From Eledone cirrhosa (Eukaryota): a stretch of DNA of 64,000 nt. Both the position numbers and the translations under genes were made by a program. Of this stretch, positions 1-61,314 are shown one piece after another; positions within the stretch are counted from its first letter, which is position 1; each line of letters begins with the position of its first letter. The stretch lies in contig OZ024741.1 in the NCBI GenBank assembly GCA_964016885.1, positions 278,814,001 through 278,878,000 on the forward strand, given 5' to 3'. Under the pieces are notes generated by a model. That model was not told where the DNA came from. It did no database searches and worked only from the letters and a program-made list of their open reading frames with translations.

Positions 1-3000
1 TTGGGGGTGTTAGTAGGCGTCAGTCATCTTACAATCCCATTCCTTCTAACTAGCCTCTGTGTCACGTGATTGATTCTTTAGAATCGGCCATTTGACTTGA
101 AGCAGTGAGAATTTCGGTACATAGAATCCAGTCCTCGCAAGCTGTTCGATCTACCGAATTATTATTATTTTTATATGAGCCGCCAGTGTCCGCGCATTGC
201 CTGGAGACTTAACTGAGAATAGACTTCCTGATGACGCAATGAATTCTCGACAGTTGGATTACGTAACTGTCTTTATCCCATTGCAGAAACTAATTAGTTG
301 GAGTGAAAATTTAAGTAAGGAAAAAAATTTTTTTTAAATTTTTTTAAAAAAATATTTTCTTATTTTACGTCCTTTATATTATTGTTCTGCATTCTCCTGC
401 ATTGAACCACCTAGGTACTATGACATAACCTGTGTATTTGCTGGCATGGGCGTGCATCTGTGCGCTTATGTTAGTTGATATATTAAATTATCTATATTTA
501 TCTCCAAATCACTGATTTGTCGAGCAAACTTGTCAAAACCACTTCTAAAAAAAATTTTTTTGGGGGTGTTAGTAGGCGTCAGTCATCTTACCATCCCATT
601 CCTTCTAACTAGCCTCTGTGTCACGTGATTGATTCTTTAGAATCGGCCATTTGACTTGAAGCAGTGAGAATTTCGGTACATAGAATCCAGTCCTCGCAAG
701 CTGTTCGATCTACCGAATTATTATTATTTTTATATGAGCCGCCAGTGTCCGCGCATTGCCTGGAGACTTAACTGAGAATAGACTTCCTGATGACGCAATG
801 AATTCTCGACAGTTGGATTACGTAACTGTCTTTATCCCATTGCAGAAACTAATTAGTTGGAGTGAAAATTTAAGTAAGGAAAAAAATTTTTTTTAAATTT
901 TTTTAAAAAAATATTTTCTTATTTTACGTCCTTTATATTATTGTTCTGCATTCTCCTGCATTGAACCACCTAGGTACTATGACATAACCTGTGTATTTGC
1001 TGGCATGGGCGTGCATCTGTGCGCTTATGTTAGTTGATATATTAAATTATCTATATTTATCTCCAAATCACTGATTTGTCGAGCAAACTTGTCAAAACCA
1101 CTTCTAAAAAAAATTTTTTGGGGGGTGTTAGTAGGCGTCAGTCATCTTACCATCCCATTCCTTCTAACTAGCCTCTGTGTCACGTGATTGATTCTTTAGA
1201 ATCGGCCATTTGACTTGAAGCAGTGAGAATTTCGGTACATAGAATCCAGTCCTCGCAAGCTGTTCGATCTACCGAATTATTATTATTTTTATATGAGCCG
1301 CCAGTGTCCGCGCATTGCCTGGAGACTTAACTGAGAATAGACTTCCTGATGACGCAATGAATTCTCGACAGTTGGATTACGTAACTGTCTTTATCCCATT
1401 GCAGAAACTAATTAGTTGGAGTGAAAATTTAAGTAAGGAAAAAAATTTTTTTTAAATTTTTTTAAAAAAATATTTTCTTATTTTACGTCCTTTATATTAT
1501 TGTTCTGCATTCTCCTGCATTGAACCACCTAGGTACTATGACATAACCTGTGTATTTGCTGGCATGGGCGTGCATCTGTGCGCTTATGTTAGTTGATATA
1601 TTAAATTATCTATATTTATCTCCAAATCACTGATTTGTCGAGCAAACTTGTCAAAACCACTTCTAAAAAAAATTTTTTTGGGGGTGTTAGTAGGCGTCAG
1701 TCATCTTACCATCCCATTCCTTCTAACTAGCCTCTGTGTCACGTGATTGATTCTTTAGAATCGGCCATTTGACTTGAAGCAGTGAGAATTTCGGTACATA
1801 GAATCCAGTCCTCGCAAGCTGTTCGATCTACCGAATTATTATTATTTTTATATGAGCCGCCAGTGTCCGCGCATTGCCTGGAGACTTAACTGAGAATAGA
1901 CTTCCTGATGACGCAATGAATTCTCGACAGTTGGATTACGTAACTGTCTTTATCCCATTGCAGAAACTAATTAGTTGGAGTGAAAATTTAAGTAAGGAAA
2001 AAAATTTTTTTTAAATTTTTTTAAAAAAATATTTTCTTATTTTACGTCCTTTATATTATTGTTCTGCATTCTCCTGCATTGAACCACCTAGGTACTATGA
2101 CATAACCTGTGTATTTGCTGGCATGGGCGTGCATCTGTGCGCTTATGTTAGTTGATATATTAAATTATCTATATTTATCTCCAAATCACTGATTTGTCGA
2201 GCAAACTTGTCAAAACCACTTCTAAAAAAAATTTTTTTGGGGGTGTTAGTAGGCGTCAGTCATCTTACCATCCCATTCCTTCTAACTAGCCTCTGTGTCA
2301 CGTGATTGATTCTTTAGAATCGGCCATTTGACTTGAAGCAGTGAGAATTTCGGTACATAGAATCCAGTCCTCGCAAGCTGTTCGATCTACCGAATTATTA
2401 TTATTTTTATATGAGCCGCCAGTGTCCGCGCATTGCCTGGAGACTTAACTGAGAATAGACTTCCTGATGACGCAATGAATTCTCGACAGTTGGATTACGT
2501 AACTGTCTTTATCCCATTGCAGAAACTAATTAGTTGGAGTGAAAATTTAAGTAAGGAAAAAAATTTTTTTTAAATTTTTTTAAAAAAATATTTTCTTATT
2601 TTACGTCCTTTATATTATTGTTCTGCATTCTCCTGCATTGAACCACCTAGGTACTATGACATAACCTGTGTATTTGCTGGCATGGGCGTGCATCTGTGCG
2701 CTTATGTTAGTTGATATATTAAATTATCTATATTTATCTCCAAATCACTGATTTGTCGAGCAAACTTGTCAAAACCACTTCTAAAAAAAATTTTTTTGGG
2801 GGTGTTAGTAGGCGTCAGTCATCTTACCATCCCATTCCTTCTAACTAGCCTCTGTGTCACGTGATTGATTCTTTAGAATCGGCCATTTGACTTGAAGCAG
2901 TGAGAATTTCGGTACATAGAATCCAGTCCTCGCAAGCTGTTCGATCTACCGAATTATTATTATTTTTATATGAGCCGCCAGTGTCCGCGCATTGCCTGGA

Positions 3001-3285
3001 GACTTAACTGAGAATAGACTTCCTGATGACGCAATGAATTCTCGACAGTTGGATTACGTAACTGTCTTTATCCCATTGCAGAAACTAATTAGTTGGAGTG
3101 AAAATTTAAGTAAGGAAAAAAATTTTTTTTAAATTTTTTTAAAAAAATATTTTCTTATTTTACGTCCTTTATATTATTGTTCTGCATTCTCCTGCATTGA
3201 ACCACCTAGGTACTATGACATAACCTGTGTATTTGCTGGCATGGGCGTGCATCTGTGCGCTTATGTTAGTTGATATATTAAATTA

Positions 3286-3291
<6 letters not shown>
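1..3291 (+). repeat. Tandem array of a 559-bp ORF-less unit (about 5.9 copies visible, left end outside window), one hammerhead per unit; candidate non-LTR retrozyme / PLE-derived array
   Basis: Units start at 1, 560, 1119, 1678, 2237 and 2796 and are nearly identical; the last unit runs into (TA)n at ~3291. Confidence 0.95.
223..304 (+). ncRNA. Type I hammerhead ribozyme, array copy 1 (other copies at 782-863, 1341-1422, 1900-1981, 2459-2540, 3018-3099)
   Basis: stem I acttc/ggagt; CTGATGA 228-234; stem II gcaatg/cattgc with inner hairpin gacagtt/aactgtc; GAAA 286-289; palindromic stem III ctaattag; GUU triplet, predicted cleavage after 299; C-A mismatch at the base of stem II. Confidence 0.8.
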
Positions 3292-13194: not shown

Positions 13195-15510
13195 GTCTTT
13201 GACAAAGAAGGAGTAGAACATTCTTCAATCCCCCTTTCAATCTAAACGTCTCTATCAACTTGCCTAAGGCTTTCTTCTCAATCTTAGAAAAAATGATCCC
13301 ATCCGGCCACAAGTACTATAATCTTATCAATAAAAATACCATTAAAATCTCGTACTCCTCCACACCTAAGATAGCATACCATATAGCTAGTAGTAATAAA
13401 AGGAAGATTAATAATTATTTCCAACTAATTAAAACACAACAGGCGGTAAACTTAGTACCTGTAAACCATAGTAGTAATAATAGTAATAATGATAATAGCA
13501 CTAATGAAATCAGTAACAATACGGATGACAGGCATCATTACCCTAGTGCTACAACTAGAATTCTTCACAACATAGTAACCGTAAACATCCAGAATAGATG
13601 TAACTGTAGAACTAATAGAACTTGCCCCTTAGGTAATAATTGCTTAACCAAAGACATCATCTACTCATGCACCGTCAACGCAAACAACTCTTCTAAAACA
13701 TATATCGGCTCTACTTCGAACAGCTTCAAGACGAGATACAACTCGCACCTCCACTCTTTCAAAAAACACAATCTAGCCAACTCCACTTCTTTATCTAGCT
13801 ACGTACACTCTGAAAACTAGGAATAGACCATTTACGCTGCAATGGGAAGTAGTGGGTAGGGCCTCATCGTATAAACCACCGAATAAATTGTGTAATCTCT
13901 GTCTTCTAGAGACCCATACTATAATCTTTTCGAAACTAGACCTCCTTAATAGAAAGTTAGAGACATTTTCCTCATGCCAACACCGATACCGTCACTCGTT
14001 CCATAACTTTAAACCTTGCTGTTAGTATATAACAATGTCAGATTTGAATTCCTCACCACCATTAACACTTCTCATCTAGGACTTATCAGCCCCCACAGCT
14101 ACACACTCTTTGATCAGCTCTTTCCTTTACACAACTCCTATTTATCTCTAACCTTATACTCTGCAATAACTGTTAGAATTAAACAAAGTTACCACCTTTT
14201 GATATAACTACTATGGCTTAATTATATTATATACACTAATGGATATTTAATATGTAGAGACATTTAATGTAATATGTAATAATAAACTATATATACATTT
14301 AAAATTATATAATTAAATATTTAAATTAATAACATGTATATAAGGGATCTACCTTTAACACAATATAATAATAATAAAGTATATATACATTTATAATTAA
14401 ATATATAATGTAATAGCATTGTATATAAGGGATTAACTTTTAAAACAATAATGTATATTATTACACAAATGATATATCTATTTGGACATATAAACAGCTA
14501 TTTTCCATAACATATATCTTGTCCAGTAATGAATAGATAACAATCTAAGTAGAAACAATTATGTAAAAGAGATTCACTTGTATCCCATTATAATGTGTAT
14601 TAGAGCAAAGAATTTAAATAACTGAATTTAATTAGCTAGTTACCTCCCCTTACACATTAGCTCCCCTTACTCACTTTCGGAAATTAACCGTTGGAAAATT
14701 CTACCTGTTGAACAACTATAGTCCATGATTAAGAATACAATAAGACTAATTTCCAATCCATTGCTTTAACTAACTTAAAACATTCAATATAAACATTAAC
14801 TAAAATATAATTCAACATATGTAATGGAAGAGACTACAATAACTTTGTTTTTCTCAACACTCGCAAATTCAAACACTATCAACATACTACATCCACCATG
14901 GATTTTAATACATTAATATATTTGCTTAAAATACAGTATTTATTTATCTATATATGCATAATAACTTTGCTTATTTCGTTCTCATATATATGACTATCGT
15001 ATGTGCACTTTCTACACACTTGCATATGTATTGCTAATGTACTCTTTCTTTCTCAAAGCTCCTTTCTCAATGCCTCTAATTATTAGACTATTCTTTTATA
15101 TTATCTGCTGCATGTATTCCACTCTGTGCTTTTAATTTGAATTTGAATTATTGCACAATTCTCGTAAAATATATGTCACATCCATTCCACCCTGTAAATA
15201 CGAAACTGTTGCTCACAACATCAATATATATGTATCTATATTATTGTTCAGTTAATTACATGTACAAACATTGATAATGCTCCAATGATTCCAAACGAAA
15301 GTTTGGAAGAAACGATTGTCAGTTATTAAATGATTTGAACACAACTTTGATAATTGTCTAATTTATTTATTTTCCTGCTCTGTAAAACAACTGATGTTCT
15401 TGCATTGAGCTATTTCTCTTACTGGTAATAAGGTAGTGGGAAATTACTGACCTTCCCTGTTTATAGTTGTTTATAGTATAGTATATACATAACTATAAAT
15501 AGTATTATTA
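13195..15510 (+). mobile_element. Penelope-like element 3' half: linker, GIY-YIG endonuclease (frameshifted), long 3' region and pLTR
   Basis: FFNPPFNL...TIKISYS...CNCRTNRTCPLGNNC...IIYSC...YIGST...FKTRYNSH; continues CNLCLLE...LLN...C.H after ~13820. Confidence 0.88.
15279..15323 (+). ncRNA. Hammerhead motif, probably inactivated (CCAATGA core, G5 lost)
   Basis: gct-CCAATGA-ttccaaac-gaaa-gtttggaa-GAAA-cgattg-TC-agt; related to the intact copy at 46139. Confidence 0.6.
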
Positions 15511-20475: not shown

Positions 20476-20921
20476 AAAGGAACGATCGATTTTCGTCAAA
20501 TCGGACCGAGGGAACAATGTTTCCGTTGGTCTTTCCAATTGCTAATACTAACTATCGGTTGCAACTCCAGGTAGAAGGAGCAACGTGAAATAAAGTGTCT
20601 TGCTCAAGGACATAACGCATCGCCTGGTCCAGGAATCGAACTCACAACCTTACGATTGCGAATCCAATTCTCTAACCACTCAGCCACACGCCTTCACACG
20701 TGAAGGCGTGTGGCTGAGTGGTTAGAGAATTGGATTCGCAATCGTAAGGTTGTGAGTTCGATTCCTGGACCAGGCGATGCGTTATGTCCTTGAGCAAGAC
20801 ACTTTATTTCACGTTGCTCCTTCTACCTGGAGTTGCGACCGATAGTTAGTATTAGCAATTGGAAAGACCAACGGAAACATTGTTCCCTCGGTCCGATTTG
20901 ACGAAAATCGATCGTTCCTTT
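20476..20921. repeat. Near-perfect palindrome (222-bp arms, 2-nt spacer) made of two head-to-head truncated CORE-type SINEs, each fused to a second repeat
   Basis: Centre ccttcac-ac-gtgaagg at 20691-20706; A box tggctgagtgg, B box gttcgattcc; one arm mismatch seen; taatat direct repeat on both flanks. Confidence 0.9.
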
Positions 20922-28746: not shown

Positions 28747-28753
<7 letters not shown>

Positions 28754-31700
28754 AAAAAGGGATGAAATCGAAAATGCAACTGAAGTCTTATTTTTTTTAA
28801 AAATACATATATTTATTTGGTTCCTTTACCGGTTTCGCAGTTCTTCTGCTTTTCAAAAGGTGAGTTGAGATGGAGGGTCTGTGGTTTTTCTCACATCTGG
28901 TTGGTCTCTAAATGTTACTTGTTTTATATGGAAAAAGTGGCTCGAAAACCAGGTTTTTCGAGAAGTAATTTGATTGGTTTGTCAATAATTATAATAAATT
29001 TCGCGCCAGTTCGCGTTACAATAGTTCTTCAAATAAGAGAGGGGGGGGGGGTTGTCACAGGTTGTTTTTTCATATATGAGTGTTTGAATTTCTTTTTACT
29101 TGAAAAAATGAGGCTCACGAAGGCTTTTTTTTGGTTGGTTATAAATGAAATTTGGCTGTCACGTGAACAAGTTTTCATTACATTTTTGCGCCCTTATTTG
29201 GAAAACTATTCTGTAGTCTTTATAGTGAATGTTATGACAATGGAGAGATAGTGGTCAAGGGAAAAGGGATTGGGAGAAATGTTCTGGTTCAGTGAATATG
29301 GCCAGCTGTCAGAGTTCAGGTGTCAGAGTTCAGATTTTCTATTGAGACTGAAGATATGTGTTTATTTGTGTGCTTGTGTGTGTGTATATATATGTGTGTG
29401 TGTGTGTGTATGTGTGTATTGGAAGATGATTCTATTAGTAGAGATGGGGGAGGGAGTTGTGTGTGTGTGTATATGGGTGTTATGTGTGTGTGTGCGAGTA
29501 TGTTAGATAGAGAGAATATATATTTTTTGTGTGTGTGTATATATATATGTGTGTAGGAAAGTGGTTCTATTAGTAGAAATGGGGAGGGTGTTGTAGGTGT
29601 GGGGGTTTTTATGTGTGTGTATGGGTGTTATGTGTGTGGGAGTATGGTTAGCATGTTAAGATGAAGAGAATATATATATATATATATATATTGTGTGTGT
29701 GTATGTGTGTGTGTAGGAAAATGATTCCTTTAGTAGGAATATTTTTGAATGAACATATTTTCCTGACTTTTTCGTGTTTGCTCTTGTATTGCCAGTGCAA
29801 ACGTATGTTTAAGGTTTATTTAGTTCGGGTTTTTATTTTCTAAAGTAGGTGTTATGTGTGTGTGTGTATGTCATATTGTGGTGTTGACATAATGTATATT
29901 AAACCTTATTTAATGTTGGTCTATATTTTTGAATAAACATATTTTCCTTATTTATTCGCATTTGTTCTGTTGTATTGTTAGCGCAAAGGTAAAATGGGAA
30001 GACTTGGAATTTGGGTGTCTTATTACTTGCGCAAATGTCTAGATATGCACTTAGTGGTATTTGTCTCGTGGTTGGATCTCGTAATTGTTGGCGATGAACT
30101 GTCATTCTGTTTCTGAGTGTGAGTTTAGTTTGTCCTATATAATCTTCATTGCATCCTTTACATTTAATGGCATAAATTAGATTTTTTGATGAGCAAGTGA
30201 AGTGATTTTTTACAGTAAAATTTTGTCCTGATTTAAATGTATACGTGTTGCCTTCAATGAGGTGAGTGCAGGTTCCACAATTAGAGCGACCACATTTTTT
30301 GATACTTGGTTGTGGGTTTGTGGTAGGTAATTTGGCATTGGTGAGTAATGTTTTCAGTGATTTTGGTTGTCTTTTGCTTTTGATTATTTTGTGTGTTTCA
30401 AGGGCTTTTTTCATTCTTGGGTTTTGTTTTAGTAGTGGGATGTTATTGTGAATAGTGTTGTAAGCTTCCGCATTTCTTGGGTTGTGTGTTGAGATATATG
30501 ATAGAATTTTACCTTTGCGCTAACAATACAACAGAACAAATGCGAATAAATAAGGAAAATATGTTTATTCAAAAATATAGACCAACATTAAATAAGGTTT
30601 AATACATTATGTCAACACCACAATATGACATACACACACACACATAACACCTACTTTAGAAAATAAAAACCCGAACTAAATAAACCTTAAACATACGTTT
30701 GCACTGGCAATACAACAGCAAACACGAAAAAGTCAGGAAAATATGTTCATTCAAAAATATTCCTACTAAAGGAATCATTTTCCTACACACACACATACAC
30801 ACACACAATATATATATATATATATATATTCTCTTCATCTTAACATGCTAACCATACTCCCACACACATAACACCCATACACACACATAAAAACCCCCAC
30901 ACCTACAACACCCTCCCCATTTCTACTAATAGAACCACTTTCCTACACACATATATTTATACACACACACAAAAAATATATATTCTCTCTATCTAACATA
31001 CTCGCACACACACACATAACACCCATATACACACACACACAACTCCCTCCCCCATCTCTACTAATAGAATCATCTTCCAATACACACATACACACACACA
31101 CATATACACACACACAAGCACACAAATAAACACATATCTTCAGTCTCAATAGAAAATCTGAACTCTGACACCTGAACTCTGACAGCTGGCCATATTCACT
31201 GAACCAGAACATTTCTCCCAATCCCTTTTCCCTTGACCACTATCTCTCCATTGTCATAACATTCACTATAAAGACTACAGAATAGTTTTCCAAATAAGGG
31301 CGCAAAAATGTAATGAAAACTTGTTCACGTGACAGCCAAATTTCATTTATAACCAACCAAAAAAAAGCCTTCGTGAGCCTCATTTTTTCAAGTAAAAAGA
31401 AATTCAAACACTCATATATGAAAAAACAACCTGTGACAACCCCGCCCCCCCTCTCTTATTTGAAGAACTATTGTAACGCGAACTGGCGCGAAATTTATTA
31501 TAATTATTGACAAACCAATCAAATTACTTCTCGAAAAACCTGGTTTTCGAGCCACTTTTTCCATATAAAACAAGTAACATTTAGAGACCAACCAGATGTG
31601 GGAAAAACCACAGACCCTCCATCTCAACTCACCTTTTGAAAAGCAGAAGAACTGCGAAACCGGTAAAGGAACCAAATAAATAAAAATATTTTAAAAAAAA

Positions 31701-31802
31701 AATAAGACTTCAGTTGCATTTTCGATTTCATCCCTTTTTCTTTATACTTCCACTCGTGTAGGACACCTCGGTTATTTTTCATTTTGTAAAAAAAAACCTC
31801 AC

Positions 31803-31810
<8 letters not shown>
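28747..31810 (-). mobile_element. Penelope-like element (Zn-finger linker and GIY-YIG) with a 1.25-kb inverted copy of its 3' end
   Basis: ORF 29899-30414 CGRSNCGTC...NLIYAIKCKGC..YIGQT; arms 28747-29995 / 30506-31746 nearly identical; flanked by (TA)n; HHRs at 28823-28860 (-) and 31632-31669 (+). Confidence 0.92.
31632..31669 (+). ncRNA. Hammerhead variant with U3-A8 core (UUGAAAA)
   Basis: cctt-TTGAAAA-gcag-aagaa-ctgc-GAAA-ccgg-TA-aagg. Confidence 0.75.
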
Positions 31811-31860
<50 letters not shown>

Positions 31861-31864
<4 letters not shown>

Positions 31865-32717
31865 CACCCCAAACACATAATTGGGATTATACTTAGGTAT
31901 ATCCTAATGTCTGTTGAGTGAGATGGAGTTGGTCAGAGTATCGCTTAAAGCTTTCACTGTTAATGTATTAAATGTTATACTCTTCGCTGGCCAGACATGA
32001 AAATTCCAGATATTTATGTATGACTTTCTTTATTTATTCTTTATATAAAATATTGATTGCATTTCCCTGTATCTCATGTCTGATATTTTTGCCTGAGAAA
32101 ATACCTATATGTGTGTATAGATAGTGCGTACATATATTTTTTTTTTTTTTTATATCTCTATGTGTGTATGGATGGTACATACATATATTTATTTTTTTAA
32201 TATCCAATTGAGTTCTTAAACACGTGGTTAAAATACCTAACAGGCTTCAATGACCAGCGTGTATATTATTTTATATCTTACGATGACCTCCCCTTTCTCT
32301 TTTGGGGACATTGTGAATTTTCTTTTTGAAGGACTACTGGCTTTTCAAATTTAGCTGTCCTTCTAGCACTGACGGAGACCATAATTAATTATTAATATCG
32401 ATGTAGTTTTTTATATTGATATTGCATGGGCATCCACTGATGAGTTATAAGGGCCCGCTTGTGTGTATTTCTATGAATTATATACACGTTTCTACATAGC
32501 TTGGGCATTATTTATCCCAACGAAACGATCGTATAGAAAGAAGGAGAGATTTATTTAATTATGTCTCATATAAAATAATACAACCAACTTTCCACGGAAT
32601 ACTAAATATTTAGCACCCCAAACACATAATTGGGATTATACTTAGGTATATCCTAATGTTTGTTGAGTGAGATGGAGTTGGTCAGAGTATCGCTTAAAGC
32701 TTTCACTGTTAATGTAT

Positions 32718-32722
<5 letters not shown>
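31861..32722 (+). mobile_element. 749-bp ORF-less unit present as a 1.15-mer (112-bp terminal direct repeat) in (TA)n, with one HHR; candidate retrozyme
   Basis: 31861-31972 matches 32610-32721 with one mismatch seen; HHR at 32433-32537. Confidence 0.75.
32433..32537 (+). ncRNA. Type I hammerhead with long stem II
   Basis: tcca-CTGATGA-gtt...tgtgtat/atatacac...aac-GAAA-cgatcg-TA-taga. Confidence 0.7.
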
Positions 32723-32805
<83 letters not shown>

Positions 32806-45124: not shown

Positions 45125-45400
45125 GTGAAGGCGCGTGGCTTAGTGGTTAGAGCATTGGGCTTGCAATCGAAAGGTTGTGAGTTCAATTCTCGGACCGGGT
45201 GATATGTTGTTTCCTTGAGCAAGACACTTTATTTCACGTTGCTCCAGTTTACTCAGCTGTAGAAATGAGATGAGGAGGTACCGGCCTTCCCGCCCAGCCA
45301 GTGGGATGGCGTTATCTTATGGCTAAAACACCACGACGTGCTTTGACCAGCGGCGCCGAATGGACGCCCGACAGACTGGTCGGTCAAGGTCAAGGTGATA
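45125..45400 (+). mobile_element. tRNA-derived CORE-type SINE
   Basis: A box tggcttagtgg, B box gttcaattct, ccttgagcaagacact...ccagtttactcagctgtagaaatg resembles the MIR CORE domain. Confidence 0.75.
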
Positions 45401-48113: not shown

Positions 48114-50234
48114 AAATTAATAAAAACAATGAATAAAAACAAAGAACAAGTTCCTTATATTAAAAACTTCATCATTTTACGATCGTTTCTAGGATATATA
48201 TGTGTGTTAGTATGTATATCATATAGATCTATGTAAAAATATTACAAACTATCAGAGGAAATATACATACCTTCACATATATATATGCTGTCTTCAGAAA
48301 TAATGGGATTTGTTTATTGAAAAAAAACAACAAAGATTTAATATAATAGGTCTGTTTGGGAACAGGTTTTGAATTGACCAATAGAAAAGTAGTTAGAGGT
48401 CAAGTTGATAGAATAGTAGTAGTAGAAATTTAATTTAGGGGTAGCGGAATGCAGACTTATGTTTTGAATGGAAAGAATACTTTGAATGAAAAGAATACTT
48501 TGGGGATGAAAAGATGTCAAGCCGGTGAAGGGTACACGAAAAGTTGATGTTGTTAAAGAATAATGTTAAAAACGAAGGAGAGTAAAATTTTAGGGTAAAG
48601 GTATTAGTGAGACATACCAATCTTATTTAAAACACAAGGAATTTAGATCTATAACAAGAAATTAAATTAATTGATAGGTATACTTATAGGGATAAATTTA
48701 TATTAATTCATATGGATGTGATAAATACGAATTAGATGTTATTAAAGAATGTTGTTAAAAACGAAGGAAAATAAAATTTTGGGATAAGTGTAGTAGTGAT
48801 ATATACCAATCTTATATAGACTACAAGGAATCTAGATTCATAACAGGAAATTTAATTAATTTATATGTATACTTTTAGGTATTAATTTTAGGAAAAGAGA
48901 GCTGTAAGAGGGAAATAAAATTATGAAGTTCTCTGTAGTAAAGTACTAATTATAGGTTAACTAAATTTAAAAAACTAATTATAATAATATGTAAAATATA
49001 AGTGTAAAAAAAATTAATTATAATAATATGTAAAATATGTAAAATATAAGTTCTTCTAATTCTATGATTGCAAGATATAATTAATTATTGTCACTTATTT
49101 AATAGGATATCCTTAGATTTCATTATTTTGTGCCTAAAAGTAGAAACAATTATTTCAAAAAGTTCCTGGGAGCATAATCTACACTCATATCTGTTATTTT
49201 GATAAGGGGTGGCCCTTTTGAGCACTCTCCAGGTCAGGTTGTAATCGATATTCTTTTTTCTATAATTATTAATTGCTTCAGCCAAGGATGTTGTATTAGC
49301 TAATGCGGCATTTTAAAAACTATGTTTGTGGGTATTAAATCTTATTTTAAACTGGTTAGATGTAGCTCCTATATATGAATAAGTTGAGTCCTTAGTGCTA
49401 ATTTTACATTTATATACTATGTTATTAATAAGACAATTTCCCTTTAATGGGCAATTTCTTTTGTTTCTACGGTTACAACGATTCGTGAATATTATATCAG
49501 GGGAGTTAGTCAAATTTGGTGTGGAATTTACTCGACTTGTTATATGTGAAGGAGATGGTGGTTTGTTACGGTTTATTTTAGTATTATGGTTGGTTTGATG
49601 TGTTGGTGGTATATTCGTGGTTATTTTACATTTATATGCGTTGTACGCACTTATATTTTGTTGTATATTTTTGGTAGTGGAGTAGGAAAATTTGACAGTT
49701 GATCTATTTAAAATTTGATTGTATTTCTGGTTTGGCGGGAAGTTTTTCTCTAGGATAGTAAAAGTTTTTTTAGGAATATTATCTTTAAATTGTAGATTAA
49801 ATGGAGCATTATACCAAGTAACTCGTCTATTACGGTTTCGATGTTGTTTAAATATAAAAAACAACCTCAAAACCGTAATAGACGAGTTACTTGGTATAAT
49901 GCTCCATTTAATCTACAAATTAAAGATAATATGCCTAAAAAATTTATGTGAAGGTATGTATGTTTCCTCTGATAGTTTGTAATATTTTTACATAGATCTA
50001 TATGATATACATACCAACACACATATATATCCTAGAAACGATCGTAAAATGATGATTTTTTTAATATAAGGAACTTGTTCTTTGTTTTTATTCATTGTTT
50101 TTATTAATTTATCTTGACTCTGTTTTCCTGTGATTTTCATCGAACATTTTTGAATGCATTTTCTCTTTTCATGATATTTGGATTACATTGAGTTCTTCAT
50201 ACGGATTGGACACTACCGTATATTTTGGTAGATT

Positions 50235-60049: not shown

Positions 60050-61314
60050 TTTTTCTTAGACATTAATTTAGACCTTCGCACACACACCCACAGACCCTTC
60101 CATAAGCTAAACGAGAAACTTAATTACATTCACAAGGACTCATGCCACCCTCCTACTGTTTTTAGAAACTTCTTTAAGAATATCAGTACTAGAATCTTAA
60201 ACCTCTCCTCTAATAAGGCTATCTTTGACAGGGCGGCACCCTACTAAAACACGGCGTTGGCTAACAGCGGCTTCTCACAATCTATCACTTACTCTCCCAC
60301 TAGCAACAACACCATTAAGAAAAGTAAGCGCAACAATAGACAAACTATCTGGTTCTCTCCTCCCTTCTGACTCAACGTTAAAACCAATGTAGGAAAAAAA
60401 TGTCTAGCCCTCTTAGATAGACACTTCCCCATAGGTCATAAATACCGCTCCATCTTTAACTGACACAAAGTTAAACTAGGATACTCCTGCGCTAAGAACA
60501 TGAAGGCCCACATCACCAGCAGCCCTAGGAGCAACACCCCACCAGGGTGCTCTTGCCGTAAACCTGAAGCTTGCCCCCTTCAACAGCAATGCAACGCACC
60601 AGCTGTAATCTATGAAGCTGTGGTCACTTCCAACCGACCAAACGAACCACAGGAGGTCAAATCCTATGTGGGCATGGCGGAGGGCCGATTCAAGGAGCGT
60701 TTCCTGAACCACCAGTCTACCTTCAGATACCCGGACAGACGTTCAACCACGAAACTCGCGAGCCACGTATGGTCCCTCAAGGACTCAAGTATAGGCTACT
60801 CCATTCAATGGAAAGCCATCACTAAGTCCAAGCCATACGGAAGGGGAAATCCGACGTGTGGCTTATGTATTGACGAACGAATAACTATTCTAAAGAGATT
60901 ACGCAATAGTGATTGCCTAAATACGAGAAGTGAATTTTTCACACGCTGTCCACACGTCGCCAAACATCTATTGCATAACTACAAGGCTCCGGACTGATTC
61001 TTTGTAATTTTATTTTTAATTTTATTTTAATTTTATTTTCAACCTAAAAACTTTCCGGACTTTCGTAGTTATCTTCCTTACACCTCACGCACGTAGTCTA
61101 GTATTGCCTGTGTGAAGTGACCGAGTTTCTGCGCATGCGCGTTCGTACGGTTGTCCTTCCTGTTCCTATAACCATACACATCCCGAGCTGAAGATCCGCT
61201 AAGGTGAAACAATTGTTCTCGGTATGGTGAACTAACTGCTGTGTAACCACTTCTACCTAACTCGTCCCTTGGACTGAGTGCTCTACCACCACGGATATTA
61301 CCTTCCAGTATTCC

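What the first reader, a model, noticed from the sequence alone, without database searches (positions are those of the whole stretch)
31861..32722. 749-bp ORF-less unit inserted as a 1.15-mer: footprint of copying a circular template
Seen: the first 112 bp recur at the end (period 749), both ends abut (TA)n, and a single HHR (32433-32537) lies inside the unit, outside the duplicated part. Inference: terminal redundancy of this kind is expected if reverse transcription runs slightly more than once round a circular RNA. This would be a second retrozyme-like family, unrelated in sequence to the 559-bp array.
Basis: partly seen in the sequence, partly recalled or inferred. Interest (0 to 1): 0.75.

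Follow-up and report, generated by a model that had tools for sequence, protein, structure and literature searches.

The report
Truncated hammerhead retrozyme riding Penelope elements
This is one damaged, 5'-truncated copy of an abundant non-coding jumping repeat that carries a predicted self-cutting RNA motif and sits in TA microsatellites; it is likely copied by a Penelope-type retrotransposon enzyme, probably from an RNA circle, which is a known kind of element.

Summary
But '1.15-mer' is only where this copy broke off. Its family shares one fixed 3' end about 190 nt past the predicted cleavage site, while 5' ends run from 86 to 1,338 nt. It belongs to an ORF-less superfamily (6,937 exact hits of one 20-mer; periods about 690-1,030 nt). 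The hammerhead has a branched helix II and covaries across subfamilies; this copy's is crippled by an 18-nt deletion. An autonomous Neptune-type Penelope element next door has the same anatomy, so this is the known partial-tandem pattern of Penelope elements and non-LTR retrozymes. Copying a circle was proposed in 2014. The family modestly favours it: repeats inside one insertion share lineage and private variants, lengths cross one unit without a step, and no array of this subfamily was found. Against it: a Penelope enzyme used uncleaved linear RNA in vitro, and local recombination occurs. No RNA data; partner enzyme not identified. The scan already noted this superfamily's satellite (e1-8819025) and similar families in this genome. 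New member of a known kind.

The parts
31809..31859 (.). (TA)n tract on the 5' side; likely the insertion target, shared with the 3' end of the neighbouring Neptune element
31861..31973 (+). Upstream copy of the 113-bp terminal segment (pseudo-LTR-like overlap); starts at this copy's 5' truncation point, with TA microhomology back to 31854
   Evidence: 5' ends vary across copies
31974..32609 (+). Rest of the 749-bp ORF-less unit (subfamily A; family period 767-771); includes an internal 51-bp duplication at 32101-32198
32433..32537 (+). Type I hammerhead with branched helix II (two inner hairpins) and palindromic loop III; predicted cleavage after 32533. In this copy 18 nt are deleted at 32521/32522 (3' strand of helix II and of the second hairpin) and stem I carries a G>A change at 32535, so it is likely inactive
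   Evidence: the deletion junction is unique in the genome, 1 exact hit
32610..32722 (+). Downstream terminal segment ending at the family's fixed 3' end (inferred internal reverse-transcription start, 188 nt past the cleavage site)
32629..32657 (+). Conserved predicted hairpin in the terminal segment; candidate protein-recognition element (inferred)
   Evidence: 16 sequences, two pairs with double changes
32683..32708 (+). Conserved predicted terminal hairpin ending about 13 nt before the fixed 3' end; T>A at unit position 96 in both repeats of this copy breaks one pair
32721..32800 (.). (TA)n then (TG)n tract on the 3' side; no target-site duplication can be read in microsatellite
28747..31808 (.). 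Neighbouring, separate insertion: 5'-truncated autonomous Neptune-type Penelope-like element (GIY-YIG frame 29899-30519, minus) with an inverted arm; U3-A8-type hammerhead-like motif at 31632-31669, 144 nt from its fixed 3' end. Same anatomy, no sequence similarity to the unit

Best explanation
It is a 5'-truncated, decayed copy of an ORF-less hammerhead repeat family with a fixed 3' end in TA tracts, likely pasted in by a Penelope-like (probably Neptune-type) reverse transcriptase-endonuclease that most likely copied a unit-length RNA circle a little more than once. Steps: (1) inferred: a source copy with two ribozymes (at least about 1.4 units) is transcribed and the hammerheads cut as a dimer through the palindromic loop III; (2) inferred: the monomer is ligated to a circle; (3) inferred from the fixed end, shown in vitro for another Penelope element: the enzyme nicks (TA)n DNA and starts reverse transcription at an internal AU-rich site just 3' of two conserved hairpins, about 190 nt past the cleavage site; (4) shown: copies stop at variable lengths, often at TA-like internal microhomologies, and about one in six passes one unit; this one stopped after about 1.15 turns; (5) likely after insertion, it lost part of its ribozyme and is a dead end.
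For: Fixed 3' end: 29 of 30 loci end at unit 111-119. Lengths of 83 subfamily-A copies run 86-1,338 nt; 15 exceed one period against 16.5 expected from one exponential; 1 stops within 5 nt of the cleavage site against 1.6 expected. 1,073 read-through junctions beside 6,937 hits of a terminal 20-mer give a similar share, about 15%. No subfamily-A array: 33 read-through junctions, none adjacent. Repeats inside one insertion match: 112 of 123 polymorphic-site comparisons agree in A (43 disagreements expected if drawn independently), 141 of 155 in C (52 expected). In 14 of 16 C multimers, lineage markers are shared 22 times and unshared 2 times, and 10 private variants are shared by both repeats (chance expectation about 0.4 for all 16). 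Ribozyme under selection: 91% of cells paired, 11 of 37 pairs with double changes, 0 of 500 shuffles as high; palindromic loop III kept as GATC, AATT, GGCC or GACGTC in at least 154 of 176 motifs, and only 1 of 176 has an extra base at the cleavage site. The autonomous Neptune next door (RT and GIY-YIG; intact 775-aa frames) has the same layout and TA target. Circular RNA is shown for animal retrozymes (PMC7229834); more-than-unit copying of circles is proposed in PMC4209133.
Against: No RNA evidence here. In vitro, an anole Penelope enzyme used mainly uncleaved RNA and ribozyme mutants still inserted (PMC11167929). Two of 16 C multimers break the pattern: L186 joins two haplotypes, L262 shows nested local duplication, so recombination after insertion could also homogenise repeats; a C-type satellite of at least 42 kb exists. 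Long copies are somewhat fewer than the exponential predicts (8 vs 12.8 above 884 nt; KS p=0.015), and 11 copies stop 0-19 nt 3' of the cleavage site against 3.3 expected, though similar clusters sit at other TA-like sites. In older subfamily A the finer shared/unshared test is uninformative (51 unshared vs 34 shared; recurrent mutation), and L008 disagrees at 4 sites. The partner enzyme is not identified: no sequence similarity to the Neptune element.
Confidence: 0.55

Rival explanations
1. Same element and same Penelope-type enzyme, but the template is a linear, uncleaved transcript of a dimer or array; repeats are homogenised by gene conversion, unequal exchange or template jumps.
For: Internal initiation on unprocessed RNA, with the ribozyme dispensable in vitro (PMC11167929, parts 1-2 read). 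Dimers, a 2.45-mer and a satellite exist in sister subfamily C. L186 and L262 show switching or local duplication. Mild shortage of the longest copies.
Against: No subfamily-A array in the assembly. A linear source should pass on different variants in its two units, yet lineage markers are shared 22 to 2 in 14 of 16 young multimers. The catalytic core and dimer loop are kept across subfamilies 25-28% apart.
Confidence: 0.33
2. It is only the orphan terminal repeat or an internally deleted copy of an autonomous Penelope element that shares these ends, not a self-propagating non-coding family.
For: Same anatomy as the autonomous Neptune. Li et al. derive retrozymes from pseudo-LTRs (10.64898/2026.07.22.740005). 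Only a small share of several thousand copies was examined.
Against: 46 of 51 read-through junctions return to the same unit within 582-1,030 nt, and none leads into a long frame (longest 225 aa). Five Penelope proteins searched against 181 loci gave scattered hits with no fixed linkage. Many subfamilies with their own periods imply long independent propagation.
Confidence: 0.07
3. A true LTR-type or SINE-type element, or a chance local duplication of 113 bp.
For: Two near-identical direct repeats bound this copy.
Against: Overlap length varies from none to more than one unit between copies; no fixed 5' end, no readable target-site duplication, no tRNA or other Rfam match in the element.
Confidence: 0.03

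Closest known systems
Metazoan non-LTR retrozymes (Cervera and de la Pena 2020, PMC7229834; Li, Clavereau and Pollet 2026, 10.64898/2026.07.22.740005)
   Same: ORF-less, low-GC (31-32%) tandem unit with one type I hammerhead; palindromic loop III; monomers, dimers and arrays; co-occurs with active Penelope-like elements; circle-templated copying proposed.
   Different: Unit 690-1,030 nt (170-400 nt in the 2020 paper; up to 972 bp in the 2026 preprint). Mostly dispersed 5'-truncated copies with a fixed 3' end in (TA)n. Helix II carries a branched insert of about 80 nt. Circular RNA not shown here.
Partial-tandem (pseudo-LTR) insertions of endonuclease-bearing Penelope-like elements, Neptune clade (PMC8557442, PMC3846280, PMC4209133)
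   Same: 5'-truncated copy preceding a full unit; hammerhead near the 3' end; microsatellite target; microhomology 5' junctions; occasional inverted 5' copies (L120, L173).
   Different: No ORF; no sequence similarity to the autonomous Neptune found here; a clear 30-40 bp tail pattern was not established.
Poseidon PAc of Anolis, internal initiation of reverse transcription (Frangieh et al. 2024, PMC11167929)
   Same: Fixed 3' end downstream of the hammerhead at an internal site next to a stem-loop; AT-rich target; copies read through the cleavage site.
   Different: There the start site is AC-rich and not homologous to the target; here it is TA-like and matches the target. There the element is autonomous and uncleaved RNA dominated in vitro.
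Non-autonomous Chlamys elements such as MRC1 (PMC8557442, passage read)
   Same: Non-coding, form pseudo-LTRs and head-to-tail multimers, once mistaken for LTR elements.
   Different: Those mostly lack canonical hammerheads and resemble their autonomous partner at the 3' end; no such partner was found here.

Membership tests
Non-LTR retrozyme | Type I hammerhead in each unit | tested here: met
   Core and three helices conserved with covariation over 14 sequences; damaged in this copy
Non-LTR retrozyme | No protein-coding capacity | tested here: met
   70 aa longest frame in this unit, 68 aa in subfamily C; 51 read-through junctions without a long ORF
Non-LTR retrozyme | Head-to-tail copies with at least two ribozymes somewhere in the genome | tested here: met
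   4 of 83 subfamily-A copies are long enough for two ribozymes (e.g. L003, L008); C has a 2.45-mer and a satellite. Not met by the window copy itself
Non-LTR retrozyme | No LTR, PBS or PPT architecture | tested here: met
   Overlap length is variable and the 5' end is not fixed; PBS and PPT were not searched separately
Non-LTR retrozyme | Stable self-paired circular fold | tested here: inconclusive
   Circular fold z = -7.5 (window), -2.5 (L003), -9.1 (C), 62-64% paired, only 12 shuffles each; internal repeats may inflate this
Non-LTR retrozyme | Self-cleavage and expression as circular RNA | not testable with these tools
   No RNA holder listed; no assay possible
Penelope-like element (autonomous) | ORF with telomerase-like RT and GIY-YIG endonuclease | tested here: not met
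   No ORF
Penelope-mobilised non-autonomous element | Fixed 3' end, variable 5' truncation, partial tandems | tested here: met
Penelope-mobilised non-autonomous element | Microsatellite (TA)n targeting as in Neptune or Naiad | tested here: met
   3' ends abut TA tracts
Penelope-mobilised non-autonomous element | Sequence shared with an autonomous partner's terminal repeat | tested here: inconclusive
   None with the one autonomous family examined; other Penelope families in the genome were not assembled
Penelope-mobilised non-autonomous element | Inverted 5' copies and 30-40 bp tail | tested here: inconclusive
   Head-to-head inverted copies in L120 and L173; too few to define a tail
Plant LTR retrozyme | Type III hammerheads in true LTRs with 4-bp target duplication | tested here: not met
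   Type I fold, one ribozyme outside the overlap, variable overlap

The most novel reading that the evidence does not exclude
This superfamily is a multi-thousand-copy natural record that a Penelope-type enzyme reverse-transcribes covalent RNA circles from a fixed internal start and rolls past the origin: each insertion's repeats carry the private mutations of a single source unit. That would settle in vivo the open choice between the circle model (2014, 2020) and the uncleaved-linear model (2024). It also carries a hammerhead with a conserved branched helix II that my searches did not find described.
Probability: 0.45. Interest if true: 0.65.

Novelty: new member of a known kind. Interest (0 to 1): 0.38.

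Why it matters
How Penelope-like elements and animal retrozymes regenerate matching terminal repeats is still open: circles are proposed, linear uncleaved RNA worked in vitro. A large, young, many-lineage family with a fixed start site and an active Neptune in the same genome makes that question testable from genome sequence and one RNA experiment. The window copy itself is a dead, ordinary member.

Tried and rejected
Rfam gathering search: no hammerhead call; the long insert is the likely reason. RNA runs: no RNA holder listed. Three runs of unknown kind from one sample were laid as contigs: depth was far higher on the ribozyme and terminal segment than on the interior, which led to the sister subfamilies; it says nothing on expression. 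Partner hunt: the 32-nt exact match to another repeat led to a CRE-like non-LTR element, not a Penelope partner; the open frame there was not identified. The adjacent Neptune shares no sequence. 51 read-through junctions gave no ORF-bearing parent. A direct dimer search with a long gap was not run; a junction pattern answered the array question. A nearest-neighbour comparison of end-to-end divergence was ambiguous. The shared/unshared test in subfamily A is swamped by recurrent mutation. Pile-up of 5' ends at the cleavage site is confounded by TA microhomology. Look-up of earlier findings by sequence gave nothing. Literature: 'octopus' plus 'hammerhead ribozyme' and a search for branched helix II listed no description of this family; subscription journals, Repbase and Dfam were not searchable, and no supplements were read (those of the 2026 preprint are closed and may list comparable families).

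Full report
Observation. The window holds a 113-bp direct repeat at 31861-31973 and 32610-32722 with one mismatch, period 749, between (TA)n tracts. No frame exceeds 70 aa. A hammerhead core lies at 32433-32537 with predicted cleavage after 32533. The window lies in a 3.0-Gb animal genome, G000; earlier AI notes call it octopus-like, which I did not test.

The family. A DNA search gave 3,640 first-look candidates, 40 scored. Of the 30 best loci, 29 end at unit position 111-119 against a TA tract and one at position 90, while the 5' ends differ. To avoid bias toward long copies I anchored on a 31-mer near the 3' end: 140 exact hits, 100 listed. After removing hits that belong to another repeat and repeated places, I tallied 83 copies; six chains were corrected by hand, three rows were dropped as other subfamily or ambiguous, and ten lengths came from the first loci. 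Lengths run from 86 to 1,338 nt, median 440. Fifteen exceed one period (16.5 expected from one exponential), 8 exceed 884 nt (12.8 expected), and the fit is imperfect (KS p=0.015). So 1.15 units is only this copy's truncation point. 5' ends cluster at TA-like internal sites, as expected for microhomology joining, which PMC3846280 describes for a Penelope insertion (passages read). The usual period is 767-771. The window copy is 3.8% from the column majority, within the range 2.1-8.7% for 56 long segments.

Superfamily. Laying three coded runs showed far more depth on the ribozyme and terminal segment than on the interior. This led to sister subfamilies 25-28% diverged. A shared 20-mer has 6,937 exact hits, control 0; a read-through pattern has 1,073, control 1. 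Of 51 read-through junctions examined, 46 return to the same unit after 582-1,030 nt, mostly 690-1,030, and none leads into a long frame (loci reach only 1.5 kb). Subfamily C (about 990 nt, about 96% identical copies) has dimers and a 2.45-mer. Subfamily A has 33 read-through junctions, none adjacent, so no array is assembled.

Ribozyme. 144 distinct motifs were collected and 14 representatives aligned. The structure I drew by hand is type I: a 4-5 bp stem I, a 7-8 bp helix II opening into two hairpins, and a short helix III with a palindromic loop. 91% of cells pair; 11 of 37 pairs change on both sides; no shuffle of 500 reaches that, and slid controls give 34-44% (relatedness inflates the shuffle test). 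Loop III stays palindromic in at least 154 of 176 motifs, the dimer-cleaving design described in PMC4209133 (passages read). The window copy lacks 18 nt, including the 3' strand of helix II, and has a stem I mismatch; its deletion junction occurs once in the genome. It is likely inactive, and with one ribozyme it could not release a monomer. Two hairpins are conserved just before the fixed 3' end (3 of 26 pairs with double changes, weak support).

An internal control. Immediately upstream is a young Neptune-type Penelope element (clade from the CxxxxCxxC linker, recalled): many intact 775-aa frames, GIY-YIG above and RVT_1 below the Pfam cut-off. Its long copies are partial tandems, end at an internal TATATA, and carry a U3-A8 hammerhead-like motif 144 nt upstream (the variant is in PMC4209133). 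The unit's distance is 188 nt and that of the 559-bp array 193 nt. So terminal redundancy with a fixed end is the general Penelope pattern (PMC8557442, passages read). The Neptune shares no sequence with the unit; it is a candidate partner only.

Circle or line. PMC4209133 and PMC7229834 (parts 2-4 of 6 read) propose copying of circles beyond unit length; the latter shows circles in coral, mussel and axolotl. PMC11167929 (parts 1-2 of 4, the main text) shows internal initiation, with uncleaved RNA as the main template in vitro. The 2026 preprint (parts 1-3 of 5) derives retrozymes from Penelope repeats, with units up to 972 bp. My genomic test asked whether the repeats inside one insertion come from one unit. 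They agree at 112 of 123 polymorphic comparisons in A and 141 of 155 in C, against 43 and 52 disagreements expected. Setting aside L186 and L262, 14 of 16 C multimers share lineage markers 22 to 2 and share 10 private variants; with those two included the counts are 27 to 21 and 17. The window's own ends share one rare change. This shows a recurring one-unit bottleneck, which a circle gives for free. But L186 joins two haplotypes and L262 shows nested local duplication, so recombination can mimic it. The cleavage site is crossed cleanly (1 extra base in 176, among motifs with intact flanks). An excess of stops just 3' of it (11 vs 3.3) is confounded by TA microhomology. No RNA holder was listed.

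Verdict. Penelope-mobilised, non-autonomous hammerhead element: about 0.9. Circular template: about 0.55-0.6 of that question, so 0.55 for the whole best explanation. It works like, and by the testable features is, a non-LTR retrozyme; expression and cleavage are untested. It is a new member of a known kind, with a branched ribozyme that searches did not find described. Interest 0.38.

Noticed in passing
window 31924-31955 and 32673-32704; L034, L036, L038, L041, L042, L056, L057 at 1500-1531; L061-L100: A CRE-like non-LTR retrotransposon has two 5'-region variants; one carries an exact 32-nt stretch antisense to this unit, the other lacks it at the same junction. Looks like capture by template switching; direction unknown.
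   Followed up: partly
window 1-3287; L263:2851-6601: The 559-bp array is nearly 100% identical between units, continues upstream and flips into an inverted array. Its hammerhead also has a long helix II insert and a palindromic loop III, and its fixed 3' end lies 193 nt past the cleavage site at a similar TATTAAAT motif.
   Followed up: partly
window 28747-31808; L252:1480-7400: Very young two-ORF Neptune-type element (409 aa and 775 aa, overlapping frames, period about 4.7 kb; 22,756 first-look candidates) with a U3-A8 hammerhead-like motif. It is younger than the unit's subfamily, so it likely inserted later into the same TA tract.
   Followed up: partly
window 5757, 22658, 25211 (-), 25351, 50426 (-), 51935, 48297 (-), 52946 (-), 61188, 62690 (-), 6090 (-): Many further hammerhead-like cores, several near Penelope-like GIY-YIG fragments (13203-13820, 49313-49912, 60464-60997).
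   Followed up: no
L186:201-2135 (-) and L262:2294-4724: L186 is a multimer made of two haplotypes with a switch near unit position 400, not at the ribozyme; in L262 units 1 and 2 are closer to each other than to unit 3.
   Followed up: partly
L124:1565-1907; L149: One copy jumps from unit position 696, exactly the predicted cleavage site, to position 391, and another begins exactly at 696; possible rare traces of a cleaved linear template.
   Followed up: no
L009, L126, L154, L123: Serial and tail-to-tail insertions of different subfamilies into one TA tract.
   Followed up: partly
window 45134-45197: tRNA-like match (Rfam 30.9 bits), part of a repeat also at 20577-20820; likely a SINE head.
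   Followed up: no
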